Translations under genes and position numbers: made by a program | Shown here: positions 8,482-21,831 of the stretch, one piece after another | Layout: every line of letters starts with the position of its first letter | Numbering within the stretch: the stretch's first letter is position 1 | Assembly: GCA_027488595.1 (NCBI GenBank) | Contig: JAIYBI010000240.1 | Coordinates: forward strand, 1-43,828 | Source: Opitutaceae bacterium | GTDB lineage: Bacteria > Verrucomicrobiota > Verrucomicrobiia > Opitutales > Opitutaceae | DNA: 43,828 nt | Direction: 5' to 3' | The notes under the pieces: generated by a model | The model's input: only the letters and a program-made list of their open reading frames with translations | What the model was told of the DNA's origin: nothing | Database searches by the model: none

Positions 8482-8775
8482 CCTTTTATGAGGCCGGGCG
8501 GCGGCGCGTTTCCCAGCTATCGGATCGTGAAGGAGGCCTCGTAGCGGATAAGCTTTTACCCGGCCTCGACCGACGGGGAAGGGAAGGTCTTTGGAGTTTC
8601 AGCAATCTTCGATAAAACCCGATCACCACGATTGCCAACTCGGGCTTTTGACGGTGCCGACTGTGCAACTCCTCCAAGTTGGCCATGTGGTGGAATCTGT
8701 CGCTATTCCCGTTTTGCGGCATTACAGTGGTGCGGCTCGCATCGGCACCCAACAGTTAAAATCCTCCTTCCTCCC

Positions 8776-9069
8776 ATGGCTCGTCCTTATCGCCGCCGCG
8801 CGGTCTCCGCTTTCACCCCCGCTTACAGCCATGATCCGTTGGAGCGCATAGACTCTATCGCAGGGGTAAACTCGGACCGCTCGCGTTGGTCGCTCACGCA
8901 GGCAGCGGCGATTGCGGCGATCGAGGCCGGCACGGATGAGTTTTTCGTCACCGCCGACGGTCAAGCCGTCAAGCTGGCCGTGCTCATGGTGCGCGACCAG
9001 AAATACCTCGGCACCGAGCGCGAGAAATCCCACCCGGACGATCTGATGAATCTGCTGCGCGGCAAGTGA
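8776..9069 (+). CDS. DUF3892-like small protein
   Basis: Pattern 'P.ERI..I.G.N.D..RW.LT...AI..IE.G...F.V...KYL.T...PD.L.NL' resembles DUF3892. ATG 8776. Confidence 0.7.
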   Translation: MARPYRRRAVSAFTPAYSHDPLERIDSIAGVNSDRSRWSLTQAAAIAAIEAGTDEFFVTADGQAVKLAVLMVRDQKYLGTEREKSHPDDLMNLLRGK

Positions 9070-9090: not shown

Positions 9091-9804
9091 CTATCTGGGC
9101 CAAACGCCGGCTTCGGGCAGGTGAATCCAGCCTTCGCGCCGGGCGGTGATGCGCTGCGACGGTTGGGGATGAGGGGTCTGTCCAAGCGCGGCGGCGCGGG
9201 TGGTGAGCGACGCGATCAAGGCATCGAAGGCGTGATCGGTTTGCGCGCAGGAGGCGTCCACCTGCAAGGCGGGCATCGCTTGGCGGAGCTCGGCGAGCAA
9301 GGCGCGGCGGGTGGCGATGGCGGCTTTTTCCGGGCCTTTGTAGCTGCGGCAGCGCAGGCCCCATTGTTTGAGACTGCCGGCTGGATAGACTTCGAAAAAC
9401 CGTCCGTCACCACCGCTGCGATCGGTGACGCCGTGGCGCGCGAGCAGCGCCATCGCGCGCATGGCGGGCAGGCCGATGCGATCGGTGGAGACGCTCAGCG
9501 GCGTGAGTTTGGTGAGCGCATGGACCTCGATGTCGGTGAGGCGGAGGCGGAGGGATTTTTGAAATTCGCGATCATCCCACGTCGTCGCGGTCCAGTTGCC
9601 CACGGCGGTGACGAAGGCGAGCGGCCAGCCGAGGGGCGCATCAATGCCGATGGCGTCAGCCTCGCGGACCAGGGCGTCGAGCGCGGTGTCGTCGCACTGG
9701 GTGGCGGCGGTGCGGACGATGACATTGCCGGGGTCGCGCCAGTCAATGAGACATGCGGCGGTGTCCTTTGGCTGGGAGGACAGATCAATGCCGAGGGTGA
9801 GCAT
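9091..9804 (-). CDS. DUF429 family protein (predicted RNase H-fold nuclease)
   Basis: LGIDLS, IGIDAPLGWP, R.TD, EVYPA, DHAFDALIA and EGWIHLP motifs. Confidence 0.85.
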   Translation of the reverse strand: MLTLGIDLSSQPKDTAACLIDWRDPGNVIVRTAATQCDDTALDALVREADAIGIDAPLGWPLAFVTAVGNWTATTWDDREFQKSLRLRLTDIEVHALTKLTPLSVSTDRIGLPAMRAMALLARHGVTDRSGGDGRFFEVYPAGSLKQWGLRCRSYKGPEKAAIATRRALLAELRQAMPALQVDASCAQTDHAFDALIASLTTRAAALGQTPHPQPSQRITARREGWIHLPEAGVWPR

Positions 9805-9822
9805 ACTGCGGCGTGTGCCTGC

Positions 9823-10863
9823 TCACGCCGAATAGGCGGGGCCGAGGCCGAGGTCGCGCAGGGCGGTGCGGAAGGCGACGGAGAAGCGGTCGCTGCGGAT
9901 GTGGAACTCTTCGCTCAGGTCGACCGGTAGATCCTCGGGCCGCTGGCTTTCGACGATGGGTTTGTCCTCGGCGAGGATTTTACGTTCCCAGGCGAGCAGG
10001 TCCTCGGCGGGGACGTGGTGATCGTAGTTGCGGGCGATGAAGAAGAATATCCGCGTTTTGCGGCGGGACACGGGCGTGGGGGCGTCGAAGATGCAGTGGC
10101 GTTTGCCGCCCTCGTATTCGACGACCAAGCGGCAGGCGAGCGGGAGGTGGAGGTCATAGGTCATCCAGCGCTGAATGGTGCTGGAGCCGGAGAAACCGGT
10201 GGCGGTGGCATCGGGGTTGGCGGCGAGGTAGGGGTAGGCAACGCGAAAACCGCCCGGCGTTTTAACGACGTCGTAGGGCGCGACCTCGGGTTGGGCGCGG
10301 TTGCCGAAGGTGCCGACGTGGATCCAGGAAAAGTGGCCGACATCAATGAAGTTCTCCAACTGGCGGCCGGGTGTGCAGTCCCACTCGGGCGGCGGATCGT
10401 GCATCATGCGGTAGGCCGGGTCGGAGAGTTCGGGCCAGTCGGGCAGGGCGGGCGCGGTGTCGGCGGCGGGGTCGAGGCAGACCCAGACGAGGCCGAGGCG
10501 TTCGATGCTGGCGACAGTGGAGAGGCAGAGTTTTTTCGGGACAGGGAGATCGGGCTGGGCGGGGATGGCGGTGCAGCGGCCGTCGGCTCCGTATCGAAAA
10601 CCATGATACGCACAGACCAGTTCGTCGCCCTCCTGCCAGCCGTGGCGGAGCGGCACGCCGCGGTGGATGCAAAGATCGCGCGCGACGACGACCTGGCGGC
10701 CGGTGGTGCGGTAGGCGATGAGGGGTTCGTCGAGGAGAGTGCGGGCGAGGGGTTTGCCGGCGTCGAGCTCGTCGGAATAGGCGATGGGATACCAGTGGCG
10801 GGCGAGGGCGCGCCACTCGGCCTCGGGGAAAGTGTTGTGCCGGGGGAGAGAGATGGCGGGCAT
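9823..10863 (-). CDS. Rieske non-heme iron oxygenase alpha subunit (VanA/NdmA-like demethylase clade)
   Basis: Rieske ligands CIH...CAYH; mononuclear-iron motif ENFIDVGHFSWIH...EDKPIVESQ. Confidence 0.88.
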   Translation of the reverse strand: MPAISLPRHNTFPEAEWRALARHWYPIAYSDELDAGKPLARTLLDEPLIAYRTTGRQVVVARDLCIHRGVPLRHGWQEGDELVCAYHGFRYGADGRCTAIPAQPDLPVPKKLCLSTVASIERLGLVWVCLDPAADTAPALPDWPELSDPAYRMMHDPPPEWDCTPGRQLENFIDVGHFSWIHVGTFGNRAQPEVAPYDVVKTPGGFRVAYPYLAANPDATATGFSGSSTIQRWMTYDLHLPLACRLVVEYEGGKRHCIFDAPTPVSRRKTRIFFFIARNYDHHVPAEDLLAWERKILAEDKPIVESQRPEDLPVDLSEEFHIRSDRFSVAFRTALRDLGLGPAYSA

Positions 10864-10876
10864 GGTGACGGTGGCC

Positions 10877-11896
10877 TCAGGCGGCGCAGGCGACTTCGGC
10901 GCCGATGCGGGCGAGGTCGGCGAGGTGGGCGCGTTTGACGTGGTCGGGCAGAAGCGCGGCGCGGAAGCCGTTTGCCGCTACCCGAACCAATTCAGCGCGG
11001 GAGAAACCGAGGTGGTGGTGGAGGGCGTGGTATTCGTCGGTGAGGGTGTTGCCGAAGAAGAAGGGGTCGTCGGAGTTTACCGTGACAGAGACGCCGGCAT
11101 CGAAGAGGCGGCGGATGGGGTGAGCGGCGAGGGTGGGCACGCCCTTGACGGCGAGCTTGAGGTTGCTGATGGGGCAGACGTCGAGGGTGATGTCGTCGCG
11201 CAGGAGGCGGGCGACGGTGGCGGGGGACTCGATGGAGCGCACGCCGTGCTCGATGCGCGTGACCTGAAGCCGGTCGAGGATGAGATCCACGAAGCTCGCG
11301 GGCATGAACTCGCCGGCGTGGGCCTTGGTGAACTTGCCGGCGGCGCGGGCGCGAGCCCAAATGGCGTCGGTCCACGGTTCGACGGGCAGATCCTCGGGAC
11401 CGTGGAGATCAATGCCGTCGAGCTCGGGCCAGGTGAGGGAGTCGTCAATCAACTCGCGACCGACGCCGGTGTAGTCGTTGTGGGACATGCCGGCGAAGAC
11501 GCGCAGCTCGAGGCCGCGGGGGGCGGCGGCACGGATGGCGCGGATCACCTCCGGGCCGGATTCGCGGAGGAAGGCGAGGGCGGGCAGGTGAAAACTCGTC
11601 TCGACGTAGCGGCAGCCTTGGGCGGCGCAGCGGGCGAGCACGATTTTGGCGGCTTCGTGGTAGCGTTCGGCAGAGGTGAAAAAGGCGGCGCAATACTCGA
11701 GGTAAAGCCGCATGAACTGGTCGAAACTCTGGTAGCGGAAATCGTCGGCCCAAAAAGGCGGAGGCGCGGCGTATTTGACCGGGTCGAGCTTTTGCAGGAG
11801 CTCGAAAGGGCAGGCGCCCTCGAGGTGGAGGTGGGTCTCGGTCTTGGGCAGCGCGAGGATGAAACGGTGAAGGGCGTCGTCTTGCGGGCTGAGCAT
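10877..11896 (-). CDS. Adenosine/adenine deaminase family amidohydrolase (COG1816), substrate uncertain
   Basis: PKTETHLHLEG, AHAGE, RIEHG, CPISN and NSDDP motifs. The real start is ATG 11896, not 12565. Confidence 0.88.
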   Translation of the reverse strand: MLSPQDDALHRFILALPKTETHLHLEGACPFELLQKLDPVKYAAPPPFWADDFRYQSFDQFMRLYLEYCAAFFTSAERYHEAAKIVLARCAAQGCRYVETSFHLPALAFLRESGPEVIRAIRAAAPRGLELRVFAGMSHNDYTGVGRELIDDSLTWPELDGIDLHGPEDLPVEPWTDAIWARARAAGKFTKAHAGEFMPASFVDLILDRLQVTRIEHGVRSIESPATVARLLRDDITLDVCPISNLKLAVKGVPTLAAHPIRRLFDAGVSVTVNSDDPFFFGNTLTDEYHALHHHLGFSRAELVRVAANGFRAALLPDHVKRAHLADLARIGAEVACAA

Positions 11897-11922
11897 GGCG
11901 GGAGCGCGCGGCGCGGCGGGTT

Positions 11923-13161
11923 TTAGGCGGCGGTCTGGCCGGCGGCTTTGTAGACGGCGTGGGCCTCGGCGACGCCGTCGGAAGGGAGGGTCATGCCGTG
12001 GAGGCGGAGGGCGGCGGCGACACAGGCGAGGGTTTGCAGGATGAATTCCTTGCGGGAGTTGTAGCCCATGTTGCCGATGCGCCAGATGACGCCGACGAGC
12101 GGGCCGAAAGAGGTGCCGATCTCGATGCCGAAATCGAGCAGCAAGGTGCGCCGCACCGCCTCGCCGTCCACTTCCTTGGGGATGTAGACGCCGGTGACGT
12201 TGAGCATCTTGTTGGGCAGATCGCCGAAGAGGCGGAGGCCCATCGCGCGCAGGCCGGCCATCATGGCTTCGCTGCCGATGCGGTGGCGTTCGATGGACTC
12301 GGTGAGACCCTCTTCGAGGACGATGCGGGCGCACTCGCGGGCGCAGTAGAGCATCGAGGTGGCCTCGGTGTGGTGGTTGAGGCCGGTCTCCCAATAGGCC
12401 ATGATCATCGCGAGGTCGAAGTAGTTGCTCGGGATGCGCGGGCCGGTGCCCGGGACGAAGCCCTTGGGCTGGATGCCGGCCTCGATGTGCCAGCGCTCCT
12501 TGAGGCGCGCGGCGACGGCGTCGGTGAAGGTAATGGGTGAAACGCCGGACGGGCCACCGAGGCATTTTTGGAGGCCGACGGAGACGGCGTCGAGTTGCCA
12601 GGCGTCCACCGGGAGGGCGTTGCCGCAGATGGAGGCGGTGGCGTCCACGTAGGAAATGACGCCGTGGGCGCGGCAGATTTTTCCGATGCGATCAAGGGGC
12701 TGGCACATCGTGGTGGAGGTGTCGCCCTGGCAGATGGCCAGTAGTTTGGGCCGGTGTTGCACGATGGCGGCCTCGACGGCTTCGGGGGTGAAGACGGTGC
12801 CCCACTCGGTCTCGATGGTGCGGACATCGGCGCCGCAGCGGGAGGCGATCTCGCAGAGCAGGTGGCCGAAACGGCCGAAGACCGGCACGAGCACGACATC
12901 GCCGGGGATGATGAGGGAAACGAGGATGGCCTCGATGCCGGCGCGCGAGGTGCCGTCAATGAGGAGCGTCCACTTATTTTCGGTGACGAAAATCTGGCGG
13001 AAGAGCACCTGCGTCTCGCGCATGTTTTCGCGGAAGGCGGGATCGTATTGGCCGAGGAGCTGGGCGGACATGGCGCGCAAGACGCGCGGGTCGGCGTTGA
13101 TCGGGCCGGGCCCCATGAGCAAACGGGGAGGCGGGTTGATGGGGGCGAAGGTGGTGGGCAT
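11923..13161 (-). CDS. pucG: (S)-ureidoglycine-glyoxylate aminotransferase (class V PLP)
   Basis: RLLMGPGP, DGTSRAGIEA, GDTSTT, GLQKCLGGPSG, SNYFDL, LNHHTEATSM and EIGTSFGPL motifs; purine-cluster context. Confidence 0.9.
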   Translation of the reverse strand: MPTTFAPINPPPRLLMGPGPINADPRVLRAMSAQLLGQYDPAFRENMRETQVLFRQIFVTENKWTLLIDGTSRAGIEAILVSLIIPGDVVLVPVFGRFGHLLCEIASRCGADVRTIETEWGTVFTPEAVEAAIVQHRPKLLAICQGDTSTTMCQPLDRIGKICRAHGVISYVDATASICGNALPVDAWQLDAVSVGLQKCLGGPSGVSPITFTDAVAARLKERWHIEAGIQPKGFVPGTGPRIPSNYFDLAMIMAYWETGLNHHTEATSMLYCARECARIVLEEGLTESIERHRIGSEAMMAGLRAMGLRLFGDLPNKMLNVTGVYIPKEVDGEAVRRTLLLDFGIEIGTSFGPLVGVIWRIGNMGYNSRKEFILQTLACVAAALRLHGMTLPSDGVAEAHAVYKAAGQTAA

Positions 13162-13194
13162 GGCGGCGGGGCGGAGCGGGCGTAGACTTGAGGG

Positions 13195-13243
13195 CTGAGA
13201 CCTGAAACCTGAGTTTGGAAGACGGAGGACGGAGAACGGAAAC
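13195..13243. repeat. Short heptamer tandem repeats (CTGAGAC/CTGAAAC; GACGGAG x2-3)
   Basis: ctgagac ctgaaac ctgagtt ... gacggag gacggag aacggaa in the pucG-uricase spacer. Confidence 0.55.
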
Positions 13244-13256
13244 GATGCGGCGCGGG

Positions 13257-14105
13257 TTAGCGTTTCACGGTGGCGGAGATGTCGCCGTGGGGGTTGGGCG
13301 CGGGGTAGAAGATGACGTTGTCGTTGGCCATTCCGAAGCGTTTCAGGTCGTAGGCGAAATAGTGGAGGTTGGGCAGGCGCAAGGAGACGGTGTCCAGTTC
13401 GGGGACTTTTTCCAGTGCGAGGGTGGCCATTTGGAAAAGAGTTTCCTGGACGGCGCGGCTGTAGGGGTTGGCGAATTTATCGAGGAAGGAGGCCCGCACG
13501 GCGGCGTTGGCGGCGTTAAAATCGTAGCCCTCGGCGACGGCGGCGTAGTGCCAGCTCGCGCAGAGCCGCGTGGCCATGATGCGATCGGTGACCTCGGGCA
13601 AAGTCGTGAACTCGCACTTGGGAAAACCGATGAAACCGGAGCCGGTGGACTTGAGGATCTCGAACTCCTTCAGGCCGGAAGTGACAGCGGGCGGGCCGGC
13701 GCGGGTGGCGCGGATGAGGGCGGTGCCGATTCCGTCGCCGGTGCGTTGGAAAGAGTGGGGGTGCGGGGTGCCGTTAACGTCGAGGCGGCCCCAGGGTTTC
13801 TCCTGCAACTCGATCGTGATGCCGTGGAAGCTCGGATACTTGATCAAAAAGTGACGGGCGAGGCGCAGGCCAAAAGTCTCGATGCCATCGGTGGTAAGGT
13901 GATCGCGAGCGAGGGCGTAGATGGTGTTTTTGATCGTATCGGTGGGAACAGTGGTGCGGTTGTCGCCTTCCAGAAAGGCGCAGTCGAAATCACCGGAGGC
14001 GAGGGCAGAGACCTCGATTTCTTTGACGGTGTGGATGTCGCCCTCGCGGAAAACCTTGAGGAGACCGACGGCGGATTTGCCATACTGGCTGTGCACGAGA
14101 TGCAT
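13257..14105 (-). CDS. pucL: Cofactor-independent urate oxidase (uricase)
   Basis: YGK, GDN..VPTDTIKNT, LKSTGSGF.GF, TTLPE..DRI, SRAVQ.TL, LPNLH and PHG.I motifs. ATG 14105. Confidence 0.93.
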   Translation of the reverse strand: MHLVHSQYGKSAVGLLKVFREGDIHTVKEIEVSALASGDFDCAFLEGDNRTTVPTDTIKNTIYALARDHLTTDGIETFGLRLARHFLIKYPSFHGITIELQEKPWGRLDVNGTPHPHSFQRTGDGIGTALIRATRAGPPAVTSGLKEFEILKSTGSGFIGFPKCEFTTLPEVTDRIMATRLCASWHYAAVAEGYDFNAANAAVRASFLDKFANPYSRAVQETLFQMATLALEKVPELDTVSLRLPNLHYFAYDLKRFGMANDNVIFYPAPNPHGDISATVKR

Positions 14106-14128
14106 GGGAGAAGGGATAGGTGGTGGGT

Positions 14129-14144
14129 TGGAACGAAACTCGCT
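14129..14144 (+). promoter_or_regulatory. Putative sigma54 -24/-12 promoter for the uraD-uraH-allC-allB-add arm
   Basis: TGGAACGAAACTCGCT has GG-N10-GC spacing (consensus TGGCACGNNNNTTGCW). Confidence 0.55.
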
Positions 14145-14162
14145 AAGTGAGTCCTCCCGGTC

Positions 14163-14178
14163 TGCAAGTATCGGGCCG
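14163..14178 (-). promoter_or_regulatory. Putative sigma54 -24/-12 promoter for the uricase arm
   Basis: Reverse complement CGGCCCGATACTTGCA has GG-N10-GC with TTGCA. Confidence 0.6.
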
Positions 14179-14185
14179 TTTTCCC

Positions 14186-14701
14186 ATGCCCTCTCATCTT
14201 TCCGCTTTGAACGTCCTGCCCGCCGCCGAGTTTGTGCGGGTGGCCGGGCCCTTGTTCGAGCATTCGCCGTGGATCGCGGAGCGCGCCGCCTCCGCACGGC
14301 CCTTTGCCACCCTGGAGGCGATGCATGGCGCGCTGGTGTCGGCAGTTGCCGCCGCGAGTGAGTCGGAGCAGGTCGGGCTCATCGCCGCGCACCCCGATCT
14401 CGCGGGCAAACTTGCGGTCTCCGGCTTGCTTACCGCCGAAAGCACTGCGGAGCAGAAAACCGCCCGCCTCGACCGGCTCTCGCCGGCTGACTTTGCGCGC
14501 ATCACCGCTCTAAACGACGCCTACCGCGCCAAGTTCGGGTTCCCCTTCGTGATCTGCGTGCGCGACCATACCCAGGCCGGTATCTTCGAGGCCTTTGAAC
14601 AACGCGTCGCCAACTCGCGCGACGCCGAGATTAAAACCGCCCTCGCCCAGATCGCCCGCATCGCTTGGCATCGGCTCCAGGATCTCGTCACCGCCGCCTA
14701 G
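14186..14701 (+). CDS. uraD: OHCU decarboxylase
   Basis: FEHSPWIA, LIAAHPDLAG, ESTAEQ, Y..KFGFPFVICVR and EI..AL.QI.RIA..RL motifs. Confidence 0.94.
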   Translation: MPSHLSALNVLPAAEFVRVAGPLFEHSPWIAERAASARPFATLEAMHGALVSAVAAASESEQVGLIAAHPDLAGKLAVSGLLTAESTAEQKTARLDRLSPADFARITALNDAYRAKFGFPFVICVRDHTQAGIFEAFEQRVANSRDAEIKTALAQIARIAWHRLQDLVTAA

Positions 14702-14740
14702 TTTCCACGTTTTTCCTCACCCGCAAACCCCTTCCCGACC

Positions 14741-15112
14741 GTGCCCGCAAAACTCAGCACTCACGTTCTCGACACCATGCATGGCCGCCCCGCCGTCGGC
14801 GTCGCGCTTGCGCTCTACCGCCTCGACGCCGCGCCGGACGGCTGGTGTCTGCTCGTCGAAACCACCACGAACGCCGACGGCCGCACCGATGCGCCCTTGC
14901 TGACCGGCGAAGCGCTGGTCGCGGGCGTTTACGAGCTGCGTTTTCAAATCGGCGCCTACTTCGCCAAACTCGGAGTGACGAAGTCGGCTCCGGACGCGCC
15001 CGCGTTTTTGGACGTCGTGCCAATTCGTTTTGGCGTCGCCGATGCCGGTGCCGCCTATCATGTGCCGCTGCTGGCCACGCCCTGGAGCTACGGCACCTAT
15101 CGCGGGAGTTAA
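14741..15112 (+). CDS. uraH: 5-hydroxyisourate hydrolase
   Basis: LSTHVLD...GRPA, TNADGR, YHVPLL and the C-terminal YRGS signature. Confidence 0.96.
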   Translation: MPAKLSTHVLDTMHGRPAVGVALALYRLDAAPDGWCLLVETTTNADGRTDAPLLTGEALVAGVYELRFQIGAYFAKLGVTKSAPDAPAFLDVVPIRFGVADAGAAYHVPLLATPWSYGTYRGS

Positions 15113-15118
15113 ACCACC

Positions 15119-16372
15119 ATGCGTTCGCTCGACCCCATCATCACGGAGCGGTTGCACGCGCGCGTCTCCGAGCTCGGCGGCATCAGCGAAGAAACCGGGC
15201 GCCTCACGCGTTCGTTTTTTTCCGACGCGATGACGCAGGTTCACTTTCGCTTCGCCGAGTGGGCGGAGGACGCCGGACTCAGTTTCACAATTGATGCGGC
15301 GGATAACCTCCGTCTGCGCTGGACCGCGCCTGCCGCAGATGGCGTGACGCGTCCGCTGCTCGTGATTGGTTCACACCTCGACACCGTGCGCGATGCGGGC
15401 CGCTACGACGGGCCGCTCGGCGTGCTCACCGGCCTCGCCTGCATTGAGCAACTTCAAGCTTGGGGCGAAGCGCCGCCTTTCGACATCGAGCTTGTCGGGT
15501 TTTCCGACGAGGAGGGCCTGCGTTTTCAAACCGCTTACCTTGGCAGTGCCTACTACGCCGGCGTTTTCCCGGAGACATGGCTTTCGTTGCGCGACGCCGC
15601 CGGCCACACGCTCGGCGAGGTGCTCGCGAGTCGCGGGCGCTCCGCCGCCGAGGTGCTGGCGGCGCAGCGTGCGCCCGAAAATCTCTGCGGCTACCTCGAA
15701 CTCCACATCGAGCAGGGCCCGCAGCTCGAGGCCGATGCCTGCGCAGTCGGCGTGGTCTCCGCGATCGCCGCGCAAACGCGGGCGCGCCTCGTGTTTTCCG
15801 GAAAGGCCGGGCACGCCGGCACGACTCCGATGGAGCTCCGCCAAGACGCGCTCTGCGCCGCCGCCGAGGCGGTTCTCGCCATCGAGGCCTACGCCCGCGC
15901 CACGCCGGGACTGCGCGCCACGGTGGGCCAACTCGCCGTCGTTCCCGGAGCGAGCAACGTCATCCCCGCCGAGGCCACACTCACGCTCGACATCCGTCAT
16001 CAGGCGGACATGAGCCTCGCCGCCGCCGTAGCCGAGCTCGAAAGCAACACTCGCAGCCACGCCGCCGCGCGCGGCATCGCGCTGCGCTGGGAGTTTTTGC
16101 AGCAGGGCAAGGCGGTGCCTATGGATGCCGCGCTTACCGAACACTTGAAAGCGGCTGCCGTTGCGCGGCAGGGCAACGCGCCGGTGCTCGTCAGCGGCGC
16201 GGGGCACGATGCCGCCGTCATCAGCCGCATCGCGCCGGTGGCGATGATCTTCGTCCGCAACCGCGACGGCCTCAGTCACCATCCCGACGAATACGTCGCC
16301 CCCGCCGACGCCGAGCTCGGGCTCGCCGTGCTTGCCGATGCGGTGTGCCGCTACGCTGCCTCCACTCCATGA
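15119..16372 (+). CDS. allC: Allantoate amidohydrolase (M20 family)
   Basis: GSHLDTV, YDGPLGV, EEGLRF, ELHIEQGP, GHAGTTPM and SGAGHDA motifs; cluster context. Confidence 0.87.
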   Translation: MRSLDPIITERLHARVSELGGISEETGRLTRSFFSDAMTQVHFRFAEWAEDAGLSFTIDAADNLRLRWTAPAADGVTRPLLVIGSHLDTVRDAGRYDGPLGVLTGLACIEQLQAWGEAPPFDIELVGFSDEEGLRFQTAYLGSAYYAGVFPETWLSLRDAAGHTLGEVLASRGRSAAEVLAAQRAPENLCGYLELHIEQGPQLEADACAVGVVSAIAAQTRARLVFSGKAGHAGTTPMELRQDALCAAAEAVLAIEAYARATPGLRATVGQLAVVPGASNVIPAEATLTLDIRHQADMSLAAAVAELESNTRSHAAARGIALRWEFLQQGKAVPMDAALTEHLKAAAVARQGNAPVLVSGAGHDAAVISRIAPVAMIFVRNRDGLSHHPDEYVAPADAELGLAVLADAVCRYAASTP

Positions 16373-17682
16373 GCAGTCGCCTTGATACGCTTCTTCGCGC
16401 GGTCACCGTGCTCACACCGGAGGGTCCGCTGGTTGCCGACCTGGGCATCGCCGAAGGCAAGGTCGCCGCTCTCGCGCCGGCTCTGCTCAACGTTTCCGCC
16501 CGCGAGGAAATCTACGCTCCCGGGGCGATGCTGGTGCCGGGCATGATTGATTCGCACGTGCATTTTAACGAGCCGGGCCGCGCCGCGTGGGAAGGTTTCG
16601 CCACCGGCACGGCCGCCGCGGCGGCCGGCGGAGTGACGATGATTTTCGACATGCCGCTCAACTCCACGCCGGCGACGGTGACGCCCGAGGCGTTTCACGC
16701 CAAACAGGCGGCGGCGACCGCGAGCGCAGTCATCAAGACGCGCTTCTGGGGCGGATTGGTGCCGGGCAATCTCGACCAACTCGCCGCGCTCCACGCCTGC
16801 GGCGTCATCGGCTACAAGGCGTTTATGTCGAATAGCGGCATTGATGACTTCGCCCGCTCGGACCTCGCCACCCTGCGCGCCGGCATGAAGATCATCGCCG
16901 GTCTGCCCGGCATGTGCCTGGCGGTTCACGCCGAAGACGAGGACCTCACTGCGAAGCTGGGTGCAGAAGCGAAAGCGGCGGCGCGATTCGCTCCGCGCGA
17001 TTTTGCCGCGTCGCGGCCGATCGAGGCCGAGCTGCGCGCCATCCGCGACGTGCTCGAACTCGCGGGCGAGACCGGTTGCCCGCTGCACATTGTCCATGTA
17101 AGCTGCGCGGAGGGACTGGCGTTGGTGAGTGCGGCGAAGGCGCGGGGCGTAAACGTCACCGCCGAGACCTGCCCGCACTACCTGACGTTGACGGTGGACG
17201 ACCTCGAAACGCTCGGCGCGCTCTCCAAATGCGCGCCGCCGCTGCGGGAGTTGGCAGACCGCGAGGCGCTCTGGGCCGCGGTTGCGCGCGGCGAGGTGGA
17301 TACCATCGGGTCCGACCACTCGCCCTGTCCGCCGGCCATGAAAACCGAAAAACCTTTCGCCGAAGCGTGGGGAGGTATCAGCGGCGTGCAGCACTCCGTG
17401 CCACTGCTTTACACCGAGGCGGAAGCGCGCGGGTTGCCCTTTTCCCGCATGGCGGAGCTGATCGGCGCGGCACCGGCTCGCCGGTTTCACTTGGGGGCGG
17501 ATGCAGGCGTGATTCGCGTCGGTGGCGCGGCTGATCTCTGCCTGCTCACACCGGCGCGGGGCGCGTCCATCACCCGCGAGAGCCTGCGCGACCGGCATCG
17601 CCACTCGCCCTACGTCGGGCGGCCGCTTGCCTGGTCGGTGAGCCGGACCTGGGTGGACGGGCGTGACGTTTTTCGGGCTTGA
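16369..17682 (+). CDS. allB: Allantoinase
   Basis: PGMIDSHVHFNEPGR..WEGF, DMPLNS.P, VHAE, ETCPHYL, KCAPPLR and SDHSP motifs. ATGA overlap with allC. Confidence 0.93.
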   Translation: MSSRLDTLLRAVTVLTPEGPLVADLGIAEGKVAALAPALLNVSAREEIYAPGAMLVPGMIDSHVHFNEPGRAAWEGFATGTAAAAAGGVTMIFDMPLNSTPATVTPEAFHAKQAAATASAVIKTRFWGGLVPGNLDQLAALHACGVIGYKAFMSNSGIDDFARSDLATLRAGMKIIAGLPGMCLAVHAEDEDLTAKLGAEAKAAARFAPRDFAASRPIEAELRAIRDVLELAGETGCPLHIVHVSCAEGLALVSAAKARGVNVTAETCPHYLTLTVDDLETLGALSKCAPPLRELADREALWAAVARGEVDTIGSDHSPCPPAMKTEKPFAEAWGGISGVQHSVPLLYTEAEARGLPFSRMAELIGAAPARRFHLGADAGVIRVGGAADLCLLTPARGASITRESLRDRHRHSPYVGRPLAWSVSRTWVDGRDVFRA

Positions 17683-17701
17683 AGAAACGTATCCAAATCC
17701 A

Positions 17702-18694
17702 ATGACACCCGGCCTTCCGCTTGTTGATCTGCATCGCCATCTCGACGGCAACGTCCGCCTTGCCACCATCCTCGACCTCGGCGCGCGCCACGGGGTAAAG
17801 CTGCCGGCGGACGAGATCGAGACGCTTCGTCCGCACGTTCAAGTGATGGGGCACATGCCGGATTTGCCCTCGTGGCTGGCGAAGTTGCACTGGATGACCG
17901 CGGTGCTGGCTGACCTCGACGCCTGCCGTCGCATCGCGCGCGAGAACGTGGAAGACGCCGCCCGCGAAGGGCTGCACTACATTGAGCTGCGTTTCAGTCC
18001 GGCGTTCATGGCGCAGCCCCACGGGCTCGATCCGCACGACGTGGTGCAGGCGGTCGCCGCCGGCATAGCGGAAGGGGCGGCCGCGACGGGAATAAAAGTT
18101 AACCTGATCGGCATTCTGAGTCGCACCTATGGCCCTGAGGCCTGCGCGGTGGAGCTCGATGCCCTGCTTGCTGGGCGGCAACATCTGGTGGCGGTGGACC
18201 TGGCGGGCGACGAGAAACTCTGGCCCGCGCACCACTTTATCCGGCACTTCGCGCGTGCTCGCGATGAAGGGCTCGCCGTGACGATTCATGCCGGCGAAGG
18301 CGACGGGGTGGCGAGTGTGTGGAGCGCGCTGCGCGACCTCGGCGCGACGCGGATCGGCCACGGCGTGCGGGCGATTGATGATCCTGCGCTGCTCGATCAC
18401 CTTCGCGAGCGGCGCATCGGACTCGAACTCAACATCACCAGTAACGTGCAGACGAATACGGTGGCGAGTTACGCGGCGCATCCGCTGCGGGAGTTTCTCG
18501 ATCTCGGCCTGCTGGCGACGATCAACACCGACGACCCCGTGATCAGCGGGATTGATCTCGCGCATGAGTTTCGCGTTGCTGCGCCGGCCGCGCGACTTTC
18601 AGCGGCGCACATCGCGCAGGCGCAGCGCAACGCCGTGGAGATTGCGTTTCTTTCGGAGTCGGAGAAGGCGGCGTTGCTGGCGCTCGGCCGCTGA
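17702..18694 (+). CDS. add: Adenosine deaminase (E. coli Add type)
   Basis: DLHRHLDGN, ELRFSP, LIGILSRT, DLAGDE, HAGE, TSNVQT and NTDDP motifs. Confidence 0.92.
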   Translation: MTPGLPLVDLHRHLDGNVRLATILDLGARHGVKLPADEIETLRPHVQVMGHMPDLPSWLAKLHWMTAVLADLDACRRIARENVEDAAREGLHYIELRFSPAFMAQPHGLDPHDVVQAVAAGIAEGAAATGIKVNLIGILSRTYGPEACAVELDALLAGRQHLVAVDLAGDEKLWPAHHFIRHFARARDEGLAVTIHAGEGDGVASVWSALRDLGATRIGHGVRAIDDPALLDHLRERRIGLELNITSNVQTNTVASYAAHPLREFLDLGLLATINTDDPVISGIDLAHEFRVAAPAARLSAAHIAQAQRNAVEIAFLSESEKAALLALGR

Positions 18695-18722
18695 TGGAGG
18701 CGAATGATTTTTGATCCGGCAG

Positions 18723-18864
18723 TTAACACCACGGATGGACACGGATGAACACGGATAGCAGTGATTTGAAATCGGATAAGGAGTGACCCGGCGGGTGGGT
18801 AGATTCAGCTCCTTGATTTTTCTGTATCAGACCCGATCCGTGCCAATCTGTGGAATCCGTGGTT
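18723..18864. repeat. Palindromic intergenic repeat, family A
   Basis: CCACGGATGGACACGGATGAACACGGAT ... ATCCGTGCCAATCTGTGGAATCCGTGG. Confidence 0.82.
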
Positions 18865-18904
18865 GGTTTGAACTGCCGATTCTCGGATGATGGGTCGGGC
18901 ACGG

Positions 18905-19327
18905 TCAGAGAAACCCGGCGTCGCGCTGGTCGCACAGAAACTGGCCGGGACTACGAACCATCAGATTATAAACTTGGCCACCGATGACTTTACGGAAATC
19001 GGCCTCGTCGAGAGTGAGGAGCACGTTGGCTTCGGCTCCGAGGGCGGATAGCAGGACGGGGCGATCCTTGGCTTTGGGGAAGACCAGCACATTATCGAAG
19101 GCGAGTTCGATAGGGACAAGGGTGAGGCAGGGAAGCAAGGTGGCCCGCCAATAAGGTGCGGCCTTTGGGCCGAGTTTGCGGACGTTGCGCTCGGTCTCCT
19201 CAACGCAGTAGGCGGACGAGAGAAGCTGCCAGTTGAGCGAGCTGGCGTGTTGAAAGACGAAACGAGAAGCACCCTTGGCGGAACCGGCGGCGGCGAGCAG
19301 GACGCTTGTGTCGAGGAAGAGCTTCAC
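18905..19327 (-). CDS. PIN-domain toxin (type II TA)
   Basis: KLFLDTSVL, E, KDRPVL and LLTLD..DF acidic PIN residues. GTGA overlap with the upstream antitoxin. Confidence 0.85.
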   Translation of the reverse strand: MKLFLDTSVLLAAAGSAKGASRFVFQHASSLNWQLLSSAYCVEETERNVRKLGPKAAPYWRATLLPCLTLVPIELAFDNVLVFPKAKDRPVLLSALGAEANVLLTLDEADFRKVIGGQVYNLMVRSPGQFLCDQRDAGFL

Positions 19328-19578
19328 TTTTTGGGCTTCACCTTGGGCTTACGGGTGAACGCGCTCATCTCGGCCTCGTCGCGCGCGATCCAGCGTGCAA
19401 GCTGATCGCGCGGGAGGTCACGCACGGGGACGGCGGCGGCGGCTTGTAGAAACAGCCCTCCATCACGCTCCTCGACGATGACCAGCGGGCTGGAAATGCC
19501 ATCGAGTCCTAGTTTCCGACGGAGCGAGGGAGGCAGGGTGAGGCCGCCGCGTTTGCTGATAGGAAGTGTGAGTGTCAT
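19324..19578 (-). CDS. AbrB/MazE/SpoVT-family antitoxin
   Basis: ISKRGGLTLPPSLRRKLGL...VIVEERDGGLFL swapped-hairpin motif. Confidence 0.85.
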   Translation of the reverse strand: MTLTLPISKRGGLTLPPSLRRKLGLDGISSPLVIVEERDGGLFLQAAAAVPVRDLPRDQLARWIARDEAEMSAFTRKPKVKPKK

Positions 19579-19620
19579 GCTGCAATGCTGCATTGCAGCA
19601 AAGCGCCCGGCAAGCGCTTT
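19578..19620 (-). promoter_or_regulatory. Putative TA operator palindromes over a leaderless promoter
   Basis: Perfect IR TGCTGCAATG-ctg-CATTGCAGCA (19578-19600) and IR AAAGCGC-N7-GCGCTTT (19600-19620). Minus strand reads TTGCCG-N17-CAGCAT-N6-ATG. Confidence 0.6.
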
Positions 19621-19640
19621 GCGGGGATAGAGGATGGTCT

Positions 19641-19726
19641 GTAGCCCGGTGTCTTAGACCCGCCCCCGCCGGTTTGAATCCGGTTACCGCTGGTTATTCG
19701 CGGCGGTCCCAGTGGTCCCGACCTAC
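19641..19726. repeat. Possible GTAG-type REP doublet (REPIN-like)
   Basis: GTAG+CCCGGTGTCTTAGACCCGCC on the plus strand and GTAG+GTCGGGACCACTGGGACCGCC on the minus strand. The right end overlaps the mocA stop codon. Confidence 0.45.
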
Positions 19727-20322
19727 CCCAAGGCCAGGAGGGCGGTGTAGTCGGCGAGCGAGTCCACGTCGTGGCGCGCGGCGGGAAGCGGGTGGAGGAA
19801 AACCTCTTGAGGATGGCTGCGCGCCAACTGTCGCGCGCCGGCGTCGCCGGTGAGTGTGAGCAGGGCGGCGAAGTGTTGTTTGAGAAAAATCGCCGGCGGG
19901 CCGCGCGAGCCGTCGCCGTAGTCGCAGAGGGCGACGGTTTTGCCTGCCGCAGTCATGCCGGTTTGAAGTTCGAGCAGGTGCCGCCCTTCGATCAAGGGTT
20001 GGTCGGCGAGGAGCACGCAGACGGCGTCGGTCTCCGGGGCGCGTTCGAGCACTGCCGTCAGCCCGCAGGCGAGCGAGCCGCCCATGCCCTCGGCCCAGGC
20101 GGCGTGCACGACGTCCGCGATGCCCGCGACGGCGGGGCGGGCTTGCAGCGCCGCAGCGTGGGCGCCGAGCACGCGCACGACGGGCGATAATCCGGCGGCG
20201 AGCGCGGCGCGGGCGACGCGATCTACGAAGGTGACGCCGCCCAAGGTGGCGAGCGCCTTGGGTCCTTCGCCCTGCCAGCGTGAACCTGCGCCGGCGGCTA
20301 GGATGATCGCGGCGACAGGCAT
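19723..20322 (-). CDS. mocA: MocA/MobA-like NTP transferase (molybdenum cofactor cytidylyltransferase)
   Basis: IILAAGAGSR...K, W.EGMGGSL, LADQP, GD.GAR and DVD motifs; adjacent to xdhC. Confidence 0.82.
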   Translation of the reverse strand: MPVAAIILAAGAGSRWQGEGPKALATLGGVTFVDRVARAALAAGLSPVVRVLGAHAAALQARPAVAGIADVVHAAWAEGMGGSLACGLTAVLERAPETDAVCVLLADQPLIEGRHLLELQTGMTAAGKTVALCDYGDGSRGPPAIFLKQHFAALLTLTGDAGARQLARSHPQEVFLHPLPAARHDVDSLADYTALLALG

Positions 20323-20325
20323 CGC

Positions 20326-21264
20326 TTAGGCGCCGGCGTGGATGGCGGCGGATTTGAGGCGGAGGGAGCCGCCGTCATGGTTTTGCCAATACGCGTGGAT
20401 TTCGGCGACGATTGCGAGGGCGATGGCCTCCGGCGTGTCGGCTCCGATATCGAGCCCCACGGGGGCGTGCAGGGTGTCGGGCGGCGGGCCCTCGGCGAAG
20501 AGGCCGGCCTCGCCGAGCTCGCGGAAAATCTCCTCCCGGCGGCGGCGCGAGCCGAGCAGGCCGACGTAACCGTAGGGCTCACGCAAAGCGTGGCGCAGGT
20601 AGGCGGTGTCGCGGCCAAGGTGGTGCGTCATGATGAGCAAGGCGGTGCGGGCGTCGGGCGGGAAGCGGGTCGCGACGGCCTCGGGCGGGCAGGCGTGGAG
20701 TTGTTCGCCGGCCACGGGGAGCAGATCGCGGAGGGTGGCGGGGTCGGCGGCGAGGCGGTGGATTTCCCAACCGAGCAAGGAGGCCTGGCGGCAGACGGCC
20801 TCGGCGTCGCGGGCAGCGCCGGCCACGAGCAGGCGCGGACGGGGCGGGATTGTTTCGCAAAAGACGGCGGAGGGGGCGGCGGAGTGGGTGTTCGCGGCGG
20901 AGTAGTGGGTTTCCCAGGTGAAAGTCTGGCGCGAGGCGAGGCCGGCGCGGAGGGTTTCGAGGGCGGTGGCGGAGATCGGCTCAACCCAGATATCGAGGGT
21001 GCCGGCGCAGCCGAAGTGGGGGCGGGTATCAATCTGGAGCCGCTCGTTGCGGCCGGTTTGGAGAACTCGCCGGGCGACGGCCGCGACACCGTCTTCGAGG
21101 CAGCCGCCGCTCAGGCTGCCGGTGAACTCGCGGTCGAGATTTACCAGCAGGCGTGCGCCGGGCTGGCGGTAGCTGGAGCCGGTGCGTCCGACCAAGGTGG
21201 CGAGGGCGAGGGGTTGGCCGGGGTGTTGGTCGGCGAAGGCGAGGAGGCGGGGCCAGTCGTTCAT
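20326..21264 (-). CDS. xdhC: XdhC/CoxI family molybdoenzyme maturation factor
   Basis: ATLV...GSSYRQPGA, GSLSGGCLE, GC.G, MTH...D, YVGLLGSRRR and APVGLDIGA.TPE.IALAI motifs. Confidence 0.92.
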   Translation of the reverse strand: MNDWPRLLAFADQHPGQPLALATLVGRTGSSYRQPGARLLVNLDREFTGSLSGGCLEDGVAAVARRVLQTGRNERLQIDTRPHFGCAGTLDIWVEPISATALETLRAGLASRQTFTWETHYSAANTHSAAPSAVFCETIPPRPRLLVAGAARDAEAVCRQASLLGWEIHRLAADPATLRDLLPVAGEQLHACPPEAVATRFPPDARTALLIMTHHLGRDTAYLRHALREPYGYVGLLGSRRRREEIFRELGEAGLFAEGPPPDTLHAPVGLDIGADTPEAIALAIVAEIHAYWQNHDGGSLRLKSAAIHAGA

Positions 21265-21363
21265 GTGCGGACTGATAGCTTGAGCCCTGCCAGATGGGAG
21301 GAGAAAAAGCCGGGGCGCGGGAACGGCCTTGCGGTGGGGCGGCGGAGCGATGCAGTTGAAGGC

Positions 21364-21831
21364 ATGAAGGTCATGTTTAATCCCAAGGAATACGCCCGCC
21401 TGCTCGAACTCGCCTCGCTTGGCATGCACACGGTGGCGGGATCGCGTCCGCCGGAGGAAGAGAACCCGGCTCTGAAACGTTACGAAGAATTGTTTCAAAA
21501 ACTACTGGAGCTGGCGACCCCGCTCGGGTGCGCGGATTACGTGACGGTGGCGAGCAACGGGCAGTTAAAGCCCTCGGAGAAAATCACCGAAGACGAGCGC
21601 CTGCGGAAGATCGAAGGCGACGCGGCGAACGATCTTTTTTGGCACGAGCTGGTGGCGCGTTTGTCGGATCGCGACCTCGCGGCCGAGCAAGGGCGCGGCT
21701 TTGCGGAGGGCAAGGACGGTCCGCCGATTGATGCGGATGCGCGGCTCAAGCAGATCGAGGACGCGTATTGGGAGGAGTTCGAGAAGAACGACCTCGCGCA
21801 CTTCATCCTACTCAAAGGAAACAAAGGGTGA
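21364..21831 (+). CDS. Hypothetical acidic helical protein
   Basis: 155-aa ORF from ATG 21364 with FWHELV.RL..RD and Y..EF motifs. Its stop overlaps the DUF4202 start (GTGA). Confidence 0.7.
   Translation: MKVMFNPKEYARLLELASLGMHTVAGSRPPEEENPALKRYEELFQKLLELATPLGCADYVTVASNGQLKPSEKITEDERLRKIEGDAANDLFWHELVARLSDRDLAAEQGRGFAEGKDGPPIDADARLKQIEDAYWEEFEKNDLAHFILLKGNKG

What the first reader, a model, noticed from the sequence alone, without database searches (positions are those of the whole stretch)
9091..14105. Purine-catabolism operon extended by a Rieske oxygenase, an atypical deaminase and DUF429: possible pathway for methylated or modified purines
Seen: uricase-pucG-deaminase-Rieske-DUF429 on one strand, with gaps of only 26, 13 and 18 bp between the last four genes. 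The Rieske protein has ENF.D..HF..IH and AEDKPIVESQ.P motifs. From memory these resemble the VanA/NdmA-B/SxtT clade, which includes methylxanthine N-demethylases. Canonical urate degradation needs no Rieske oxygenase. Inference: the cluster funnels N-methylated or otherwise modified purines (methylxanthines, modified RNA/DNA bases) into xanthine/urate for nitrogen. Alternatively it provides a Moco-independent hydroxylation like Klebsiella HpxDE.
Basis: partly seen in the sequence, partly recalled or inferred. Interest (0 to 1): 0.72.

Follow-up and report, generated by a model that had tools for sequence, protein, structure and literature searches.

The report
HpxD-paralogue oxygenase paired with adenine-type deaminase
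An uncharacterised iron-sulfur oxygenase travels with its own adenine-type deaminase and a purine-like transporter in Verrucomicrobia, and the pair likely turns a methylated or otherwise non-standard adenine into an ordinary purine that the neighbouring uric-acid genes can break down for nitrogen.

Summary
In detail: five same-strand genes, gaps of 95, 26, 13 and 18 bp, both motifs present. The Rieske protein is not NdmA/B (34%/28% identity; joint clade rejected, p-AU 0.0004) or VanA-like (25-28%). It is closer to Klebsiella HpxD (44%) but forms its own mainly Verrucomicrobia clade with a different pocket: Met234/Asp260/Glu293/Leu297, against Arg/Asn/Asn-Gln/Phe-Tyr in all 26 HpxD-like rows. 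Ten of 21 carrier genomes also hold an HpxD-like copy, once in the same operon. This genome also has a xanthine dehydrogenase operon. The conserved unit is deaminase + Rieske (16 of 19 genomes), often with an NCS2-like permease (10 of 19). Urate genes adjoin it in only 2 of 19. DUF429 is a bystander (0 of 19; a relative lost the island and kept it). Best reading (0.4): oxidative N-demethylation of a methylated adenine, coupled to deamination. Rivals: HpxD-like hydroxylation (0.27) and ring hydroxylation of an aminopurine (0.18). No reductase or formaldehyde gene is linked, and the substrate is untested. The scan earlier noted a similar reductase-less Rieske among purine deaminases in betaproteobacteria (e1-5074478); I could not match it by sequence.

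The parts
9823..10863 (-). Rieske non-haem iron monooxygenase (346 aa), paralogue of HpxD; core of the module
   Evidence: PF00355+PF19112; ligands C65/H67/C84/H87, D174, H177/H182/D300 invariant in 86 rows; 43.9% to HpxD, 34.4% to NdmA; own clade 99/97; model pLDDT 95, TM 0.80-0.83 to GxtA/SxtT/NdmA
10877..11896 (-). Adenine-type (ADA family, HxHxE) deaminase, Rieske-linked accessory paralogue; core of the module
   Evidence: PF00962; best PDB match 3ou8/3pan, listed as the Pa0148 entries from my recall; Rieske-linked clade SH-aLRT 96, apart from the near-universal family copy
11923..13161 (-). PucG/HpxJ-type ureidoglycine aminotransferase (name inferred from family and context)
   Evidence: PF00266; next to uricase in 4 other genomes
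13257..14105 (-). Cofactor-independent urate oxidase
   Evidence: TIGR03383 307.6 bits over cut-off 168.4
9091..9804 (-). DUF429 protein; same strand but a bystander, not part of the module
   Evidence: PF04250; in 0 of 19 Rieske-carrying loci; kept at 89% in G001, which lacks window 9889-21308
14189..14701 (+). OHCU decarboxylase UraD
   Evidence: TIGR03164 over cut-off
14741..15112 (+). HIU hydrolase UraH
   Evidence: TIGR02962 over cut-off
15119..16372 (+). Allantoate amidohydrolase
   Evidence: M20 family, NF006775 463 bits, just under cut-off 479
16369..17682 (+). Allantoinase AllB
   Evidence: TIGR03178 over cut-off
17663..18694 (+). Canonical adenosine deaminase (HxHxD)
   Evidence: TIGR01430 and NF006846 over cut-off
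19723..21498 (-). xdhC and mocA/pucB-type maturation genes for xanthine dehydrogenase
   Evidence: PF13478/PF02625 and PF12804; XDH structural genes on contig C505

Best explanation
The Rieske gene and the deaminase gene form a conserved Verrucomicrobia module, and the Rieske enzyme likely removes an N-methyl group from a methylated adenine-type base while the deaminase would remove the 6-amino group, so that an ordinary oxo-purine reaches xanthine dehydrogenase, uricase and the allantoin pathway. Shown: the gene pair, its conservation, intact catalytic residues, a clade apart from HpxD and NdmA/B, an acidic Arg-less pocket, and co-occurrence with HpxD-like paralogues and XDH. Inferred: import by an NCS2-like permease; O2-dependent hydroxylation of an N-methyl group with release of formaldehyde, as in NdmA/B; electrons from an unlinked ferredoxin or reductase; the exact base (1-, 3- or N6,N6-dimethyladenine from RNA or DNA turnover are my leading guesses); and the order of the two steps.
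For: (1) A deaminase lies directly upstream in 16 of 19 GTDB genomes (12 of the window's type, 4 of a 476-aa type) and in 4 of 5 metagenome loci with upstream sequence. In 5 of 7 divergent members (38-44%) the deaminase stays in the operon but in the reverse order (L113-115, L229, L230). (2) The Rieske-linked deaminases form their own clade (SH-aLRT 96), apart from the copy found in 231 of 261 family genomes. This genome already has AdeC-type and canonical ADA enzymes, so plain adenine deamination is covered. (3) At NdmA pocket positions F223/N250/N282/F286 (F223, N282, F286 named in passages of bioRxiv 10.1101/2021.12.17.472166; N250 added by me), this clade has M234 (41 of 41), D260 (33 of 41), E293 (41 of 41), L297 (36 of 41). 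All 26 HpxD-like rows have Arg and Asn at the first two. Hydrophobic 234 plus L297 resembles NdmB (F, Q289, L293). Carboxylates suit an amino or cationic purine (inference). (4) 10 of 21 carrier genomes also have an HpxD-like copy, usually beside a xanthine-permease homologue. In complete genome G155 both lie in one operon: this-clade Rieske, permease, HpxD-like Rieske (L107). 12 of 21 carry a Moco hydroxylase. This genome has an XDH operon, MoaC and MoeA. (5) A parallel module pairs a cytochrome P450 with a 65%-identical deaminase and the same permease family (own C398, G216, G196). (6) Deaminases of this COG act on N6-methylated adenines (Patl2390; passages of PMC13296781).
Against: No activity data exist. 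No FrmA/FdhA homologue was found in this 86%-complete genome, and the only hit in the Q-clade loci was a 24% match in L025, whereas the ndm cluster carries frmA. No reductase is linked in any locus, and PF00970 was found in only 2 of 5 carriers tested. The nearest characterised enzyme is HpxD, and NCBI names a 64% homologue HpxD. In G293, G297 and G307, uricase and UraD are present but neither a Moco hydroxylase nor an HpxD-like copy was found, which fits the HpxD-like rival; their completeness is not given. Pocket positions come from alignments, not model coordinates. Three of 19 genomes (L022, L024, L025), and G155, have no deaminase beside the Rieske gene.
Confidence: 0.4

Rival explanations
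1. HpxD-equivalent: the deaminase makes hypoxanthine from adenine and the Rieske enzyme hydroxylates hypoxanthine to xanthine (perhaps on to urate) without molybdenum, as a back-up to XDH or as one half of a two-paralogue split of the HpxD reactions.
For: HpxD is the closest characterised protein (43.9%, 275 bits). Q + sister + HpxD-like rows form one side of a branch against NdmA/B (SH-aLRT 97 and 95 in the quick trees; only 74/92 in the careful tree). An adenine deaminase directly upstream would supply hypoxanthine. Three carriers with uricase and UraD show no other candidate oxidase.
Against: Joint clades with proteobacterial HpxD (p-AU 0.00014) or with all HpxD-like rows (p-AU 0.03) are rejected. 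The invariant HpxD Arg/Asn pocket is replaced by Met/Asp/Glu. HpxD-like paralogues co-occur in 10 of 21 carriers. 11 of 21 carriers show no UraD.
Confidence: 0.27
2. Ring hydroxylase for an unmethylated aminopurine (adenine, guanine or 2,6-diaminopurine): C2 or C8 is hydroxylated first and the amino group is then removed, giving xanthine or urate directly.
For: An acidic pocket suits aminopurines; the nearest characterised relative hydroxylates purine ring carbons; no formaldehyde genes are needed, and none are linked; an 8-oxoguanine-deaminase-like gene sits in this genome's XDH operon.
Against: Standard deaminases for adenine and adenosine are already present, so the route would be redundant. 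The P450-deaminase parallel fits dealkylation at least as well.
Confidence: 0.18
3. Methylxanthine or methylurate N-demethylase of the caffeine (NdmA/B) type.
For: NdmA is the best sequence match in the PDB; both motifs and L297 resemble Ndm enzymes.
Against: The PDB search returned no HpxD entry, and HpxD itself hits SxtT/GxtA/NdmA first, so the NdmA hit is not diagnostic. Q+NdmA/B is rejected (p-AU 0.0004). No NdmD-, frmA- or gntR-like neighbours were seen. Methylxanthines have no amino group for the coupled deaminase.
Confidence: 0.07
4. Aromatic O-demethylase (VanA type, as many databases label it) that sits among purine genes by chance.
For: VanA_C domain; JGI labels 'vanillate O-demethylase'.
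Against: 25-28% identity to VanA-like outgroups; persistent purine neighbours across families.
Confidence: 0.03

Closest known systems
HpxD/HpxE, Moco-independent hypoxanthine/xanthine hydroxylase of Klebsiella (RefSeq-annotated copy, L038)
   Same: Same Rieske+VanA_C architecture, 43.9% identity, same broad branch, purine-catabolic context.
   Different: Separate clade (AU-rejected union); pocket Met234/Asp260/Glu293/Leu297 vs Arg233/Asn259/Asn292/Phe296; no HpxE reductase or HpxR regulator beside it; coupled to a deaminase; co-occurs with HpxD-like paralogues.
NdmA/NdmB methylxanthine N-demethylases (PDB 6ick/6icl; orthologues in L068 verified)
   Same: Same fold (TM 0.78-0.82); shared ENF-D and EDKP motifs; hydrophobic residue at the F223 site; Leu at the NdmB L293 site.
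   Different: 34%/28% identity; outside the clade; Glu instead of Asn/Gln; no NdmD, NdmC or formaldehyde genes.
SxtT/GxtA Rieske hydroxylases
   Same: Best structural matches (TM 0.81-0.83); act on amino-rich purine-like scaffolds (recalled).
   Different: About 30% identity; biosynthetic context; not placed in my trees, which had only a Nostoc relative as proxy.
cog1816 deaminases: Pa0148 adenine deaminase (PDB 3ou8/3pan; name recalled), Patl2390 cytokinin/N6-methyladenine deaminase
   Same: Same family, HxHxE motif, intact catalytic set.
   Different: 132 bits only; substrate-side segments differ (SFHLP vs FFDPQ); Patl2390 could not be fetched for comparison.

Membership tests
HpxD | Intact Rieske and mononuclear Fe ligands | tested here: met
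HpxD | Falls inside the HpxD clade | tested here: not met
   Separate clade 99/97; unions rejected, p-AU 0.00014 and 0.03
HpxD | Arg233/Asn259 pocket shared by all HpxD-like rows | tested here: not met
   26 of 26 HpxD-like rows vs M234 41 of 41 and D260 33 of 41 here; signature derived here, not from a paper
HpxD | Adjacent HpxE (PDR-type) reductase | tested here: not met
   None in the window or any homologous locus; one unlinked 26% homologue on C384
HpxD | Oxidises hypoxanthine and xanthine | not testable with these tools
   needs an assay
NdmA/NdmB | Clade with NdmA/NdmB | tested here: not met
   p-AU 0.00036
NdmA/NdmB | Pocket F168, F174, F223, L248, N/Q282, V285, F/L286 | tested here: inconclusive
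   F172, F178, M234, I258, E293, I296, L297: similar hydrophobic set, Glu in place of Asn/Gln
NdmA/NdmB | NdmD reductase and formaldehyde genes in the cluster | tested here: not met
VanA/DdmC O-demethylases | Sequence grouping and aromatic-catabolic context | tested here: not met
   25-28% identity; purine context
ADA-family (cog1816) deaminase | HxH, HxxE, H, DD catalytic set | tested here: met
Canonical adenosine deaminase (TIGR01430) | Score above curated cut-off | tested here: not met
   172.9 vs 216.55

The most novel reading that the evidence does not exclude
This is the type member of an undescribed family of oxygenase + deaminase + permease cassettes (Rieske or P450 as the interchangeable oxygenase) with which Verrucomicrobia strip methyl groups from modified adenine bases released by RNA and DNA turnover, giving a first enzymatic route for bacterial catabolism of free methyladenines such as 1-methyl- or N6,N6-dimethyladenine.
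Probability: 0.35. Interest if true: 0.78.

Novelty: new variant of a known kind. Interest (0 to 1): 0.55.

Why it matters
How bacteria recycle methylated purine bases is largely open. A 2026 paper (PMC13296781, abstract and passages) reports that E. coli handles N6-methyl- but not N6,N6-dimethyladenine, and names caffeine as the best-studied case. A two-gene cassette with a defined pocket signature makes the question directly testable with an auxotroph screen. It would also correct database labels (VanA, HpxD) for this clade and add an amino-purine-selective Rieske enzyme to a biocatalytically useful group. If it proves HpxD-like, it is still a second, reductase-less solution to Moco-free purine oxidation.

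Tried and rejected
NdmA as best PDB hit: rejected as diagnostic, since HpxD gives the same neighbours. DUF429 as a pathway member: rejected; it has a weak PADLOC candidate hit (PDC-S44, E 3e-11) and no PDB relative. Riboswitch: no Rfam match at gathering score in the window. Sigma-70 promoters and terminators: nothing above shuffles. Fused forms: none among longer proteins, which is weak evidence. Expression: no RNA holder listed. One search queried the antisense frame by mistake and is disregarded; one search replaces it. L037 (35%) was dropped from neighbourhood counts as outside the clade, L163 was assigned to the sister clade, and L023/L036 are one genome. G303's HpxD-like copy was dropped from the tree as a duplicate and is counted. 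The careful 89-row tree did not finish (one search shows the quick tree); a 43-row careful tree was used instead. Literature searches found no description of this clade or of a Rieske enzyme acting on methyladenines or methylguanines; the library omits most subscription papers. The primary HpxDE papers and the Pa0148 paper were not held, so HpxDE function is second-hand from passages of PMC7373994 and PMC13751858. PMC6281700 passages gave nothing usable. No supplements were read. No complex prediction was run, because no binding claim is made.
Full report
Observation. The five genes, the spacings (95, 26, 13, 18 bp) and both Rieske motifs are as described. Family scans confirm uricase, a class-V aminotransferase, an ADA-family deaminase, a Rieske+VanA_C oxygenase and DUF429. 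The divergent strand holds the rest of the aerobic pathway (uraD, uraH, allantoate amidohydrolase, allantoinase) and a canonical adenosine deaminase, followed by mocA and xdhC. Homologues place the organism among Opitutaceae-type Verrucomicrobia (record titles). The genome is 86% complete.

What the Rieske protein is. All cluster, bridge and iron ligands are intact. The model is confident (pLDDT 95) and matches GxtA, SxtT and NdmA at TM 0.80-0.83. NdmA is the best PDB sequence hit, but no HpxD entry came up and HpxD itself retrieves the same set. With references taken from annotated plasmids (HpxD; NdmA/NdmB orthologues verified), identities are 43.9% to HpxD, 34.4% to NdmA, 27.9% to NdmB and 25-28% to VanA-like proteins. 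In a 43-row careful tree the window protein lies in its own clade (99/97). Its sister (98/95) is an uncharacterised group that includes a Cupriavidus gene beside fdhA and rut-like genes. The HpxD-like rows form a separate clade (94/97). Unions with NdmA/B (p-AU 0.0004), with proteobacterial HpxD (0.00014) and with all HpxD-like rows (0.03) are rejected. The grouping of all three against NdmA/B is starred in two quick trees but only 74/92 in the careful one. So it is a paralogue of HpxD, not an orthologue, and not an Ndm enzyme.

Pocket. I mapped NdmA's substrate-contact residues (passages of bioRxiv 10.1101/2021.12.17.472166; N250 added by me as the next inward position) onto alignments. The clade has M234 (41 of 41 rows), D260 (33 of 41), E293 (41 of 41) and L297 (36 of 41) (the first 41 of 86 rows of A1, 53% identity or more). 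All 26 HpxD-like rows have Arg and Asn at the first two sites and Asn/Gln, Phe/Tyr at the others. Loss of the Arg and gain of two carboxylates suggests an amino-bearing or cationic purine. The hydrophobic 234 and L297 recall NdmB. This is inference from alignment; I had no model coordinates.

What travels with it. Among 19 GTDB genomes with close homologues (20 loci at 57-85%; one 35% locus dropped), a deaminase lies directly upstream in 16. A 520-570-aa membrane protein with no Pfam hit, which the Atlas groups with NCS2/uracil permeases (0.98-0.99), is adjacent in 10. pucG is adjacent in 2 (both same-genus contigs that end in it), and DUF429 in none. Four of 5 informative metagenome loci repeat the deaminase link. 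In Verrucomicrobiales the partner is a different 476-aa deaminase behind a TonB receptor and two NUP proteins. Five of 7 divergent members keep the deaminase in reversed order; three of these (one genus) face a uraD-uraH-allC-allB operon. The module is rare: 7 of 261 family genomes against UraD in 75 of 261, and 5 of 401 phylum genomes have any match at 1e-60. Six of the 7 family carriers have UraD, but kin are not independent. The window's operon is therefore a local joining of a conserved deaminase-Rieske module to the urate genes.

DUF429. Homologues occur in 19 of 261 family genomes; none of the 14 non-self loci examined had a Rieske or deaminase gene within 1.5 kb. G001 lacks window 9889-21308, keeps scraps of the Rieske gene and xdhC, and retains DUF429 at 89% identity in the same place. 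It is a bystander.

The deaminase. The catalytic set is intact and the nearest structures are 3ou8/3pan and 3rys (that 3ou8 is Pa0148 adenine deaminase is recalled). A paralogue at about 50-55% is present in 231 of 261 family genomes. The Rieske-linked copies form their own clade (SH-aLRT 96; L029 falls outside it). This genome also has AdeC-type, canonical ADA, 8-oxoguanine-deaminase-like and cytosine-deaminase-like enzymes. A 65% paralogue on C398 follows a cytochrome P450 and faces the same permease family, an arrangement repeated in G216 and G196.

Redundancy. Of 21 carrier genomes, 10 also have an HpxD-like copy, 12 a Moco-binding hydroxylase, 10 UraD and 4 uricase. In complete G155 the order is this-clade Rieske, permease, HpxD-like Rieske in one operon, inside a nucleobase-uptake island, with XDH elsewhere beside uraD. 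The window's genome has an XDH operon with an NCS2 permease, plus MoaC and MoeA, and no HpxD-like copy was found. Against my reading: G293, G297 and G307 have uricase and UraD but neither alternative oxidase was found; no FrmA/FdhA homologue was found in this genome; and no reductase is linked anywhere.

Mechanism and verdict. Most likely (0.4), the Rieske enzyme N-demethylates a methylated adenine-type base and the deaminase removes the 6-amino group, feeding hypoxanthine to XDH and the urate pathway, or to salvage where UraD is missing. Rivals are HpxD-like hydroxylation (0.27), aminopurine ring hydroxylation (0.18), methylxanthine demethylation (0.07) and a VanA-type bystander (0.03). It works like an Hpx/Ndm-type purine monooxygenase but fails the membership tests for both. 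Nine literature searches found no description of the clade. I read passages only of PMC7373994, PMC13751858, PMC13296781 (also its abstract), PMC12445004, PMC6281700 and the bioRxiv preprint; the primary HpxDE papers were not held. Sequence look-ups with the window protein and P0125 did not retrieve it, so whether it is the same clade is unknown, and it is not counted as support. Novelty: new variant of a known kind; interest 0.55.

Noticed in passing
G000:C398 12893-16383 (L057); L120/L221 (G216); L121 (G196): Cytochrome P450 directly followed by a deaminase 65% identical to the window's, facing the same NCS2-like permease family: a parallel oxygenase-deaminase cassette.
   Followed up: partly
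L043 6507-13590 (G016), L044 (G011), L226 (G460): TetR, TonB receptor, double SnoaL, two tandem sister-clade Rieske genes and an NMT1 ABC transporter. In G016/G011 the first copy has lost three of four Rieske ligands but keeps the Fe triad, which suggests an NdmA/B/C-like hetero-oligomer; in G460 both copies keep their ligands.
   Followed up: partly
L107 11126-12700; G000:C347 25020-26351: A 520-570-aa membrane family with no Pfam hit; the Atlas groups it with NCS2/uracil permeases; it recurs beside purine genes.
   Followed up: partly
G000:C385/C526; L125-L146: An uncharacterised ADA-family gene is near-universal in this family (231 of 261 genomes), in the loci I annotated usually beside an aminopeptidase-like gene; substrate unknown (aminodeoxyfutalosine is an untested guess from recall).
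   Followed up: no
window 14163-14178 (-): Sigma-54-like GG-N10-GC motif 73 bp before uricase, also in G011, not in 3 other uricase upstream regions; 48 of 2811 upstream regions match by chance; spotted by eye first; a sigma-54 gene is present. Weak hint of nitrogen control.
   Followed up: partly
L217 (G001:C3): Clean loss of the 11.4-kb purine island (window 9889-21308) with remnants of the Rieske gene and xdhC left behind.
   Followed up: yes
L113-L115 (G228, G097, G264): Divergent Rieske + deaminase followed by a Vut_1 family transporter (queuosine-precursor type, recalled), facing uraD-uraH-allC-allB, a 2OG-Fe(II) oxygenase and a CDA-type deaminase.
   Followed up: no
L031 111-1649; G000:C172 748-2352: A 512-534-aa protein with GTP cyclohydrolase II homology lies beside purine-uptake genes in two lineages.
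   Followed up: no
L040 7956-10379: A Paraburkholderia hpxD is followed by a rubredoxin and an FAD-dependent oxidoreductase instead of HpxE, a different electron chain for this family.
   Followed up: no
L041 7986-16996; L068 1-10757: One Pseudomonas putida plasmid carries an HpxD-like gene and hpxO beside ndmC/ndmD-like pieces; another carries ndmA and ndmB within an ndm-like cluster.
   Followed up: partly
window 8632-9069 (+), 18905-19593 (-): DUF3892 gene converging on DUF429; a PIN-domain gene with a small upstream ORF inside the purine island.
   Followed up: no
L026 7971-9024; L020 9026-10596: Frameshifted Rieske and permease copies in two MAGs; decay or assembly error not resolved.
   Followed up: no
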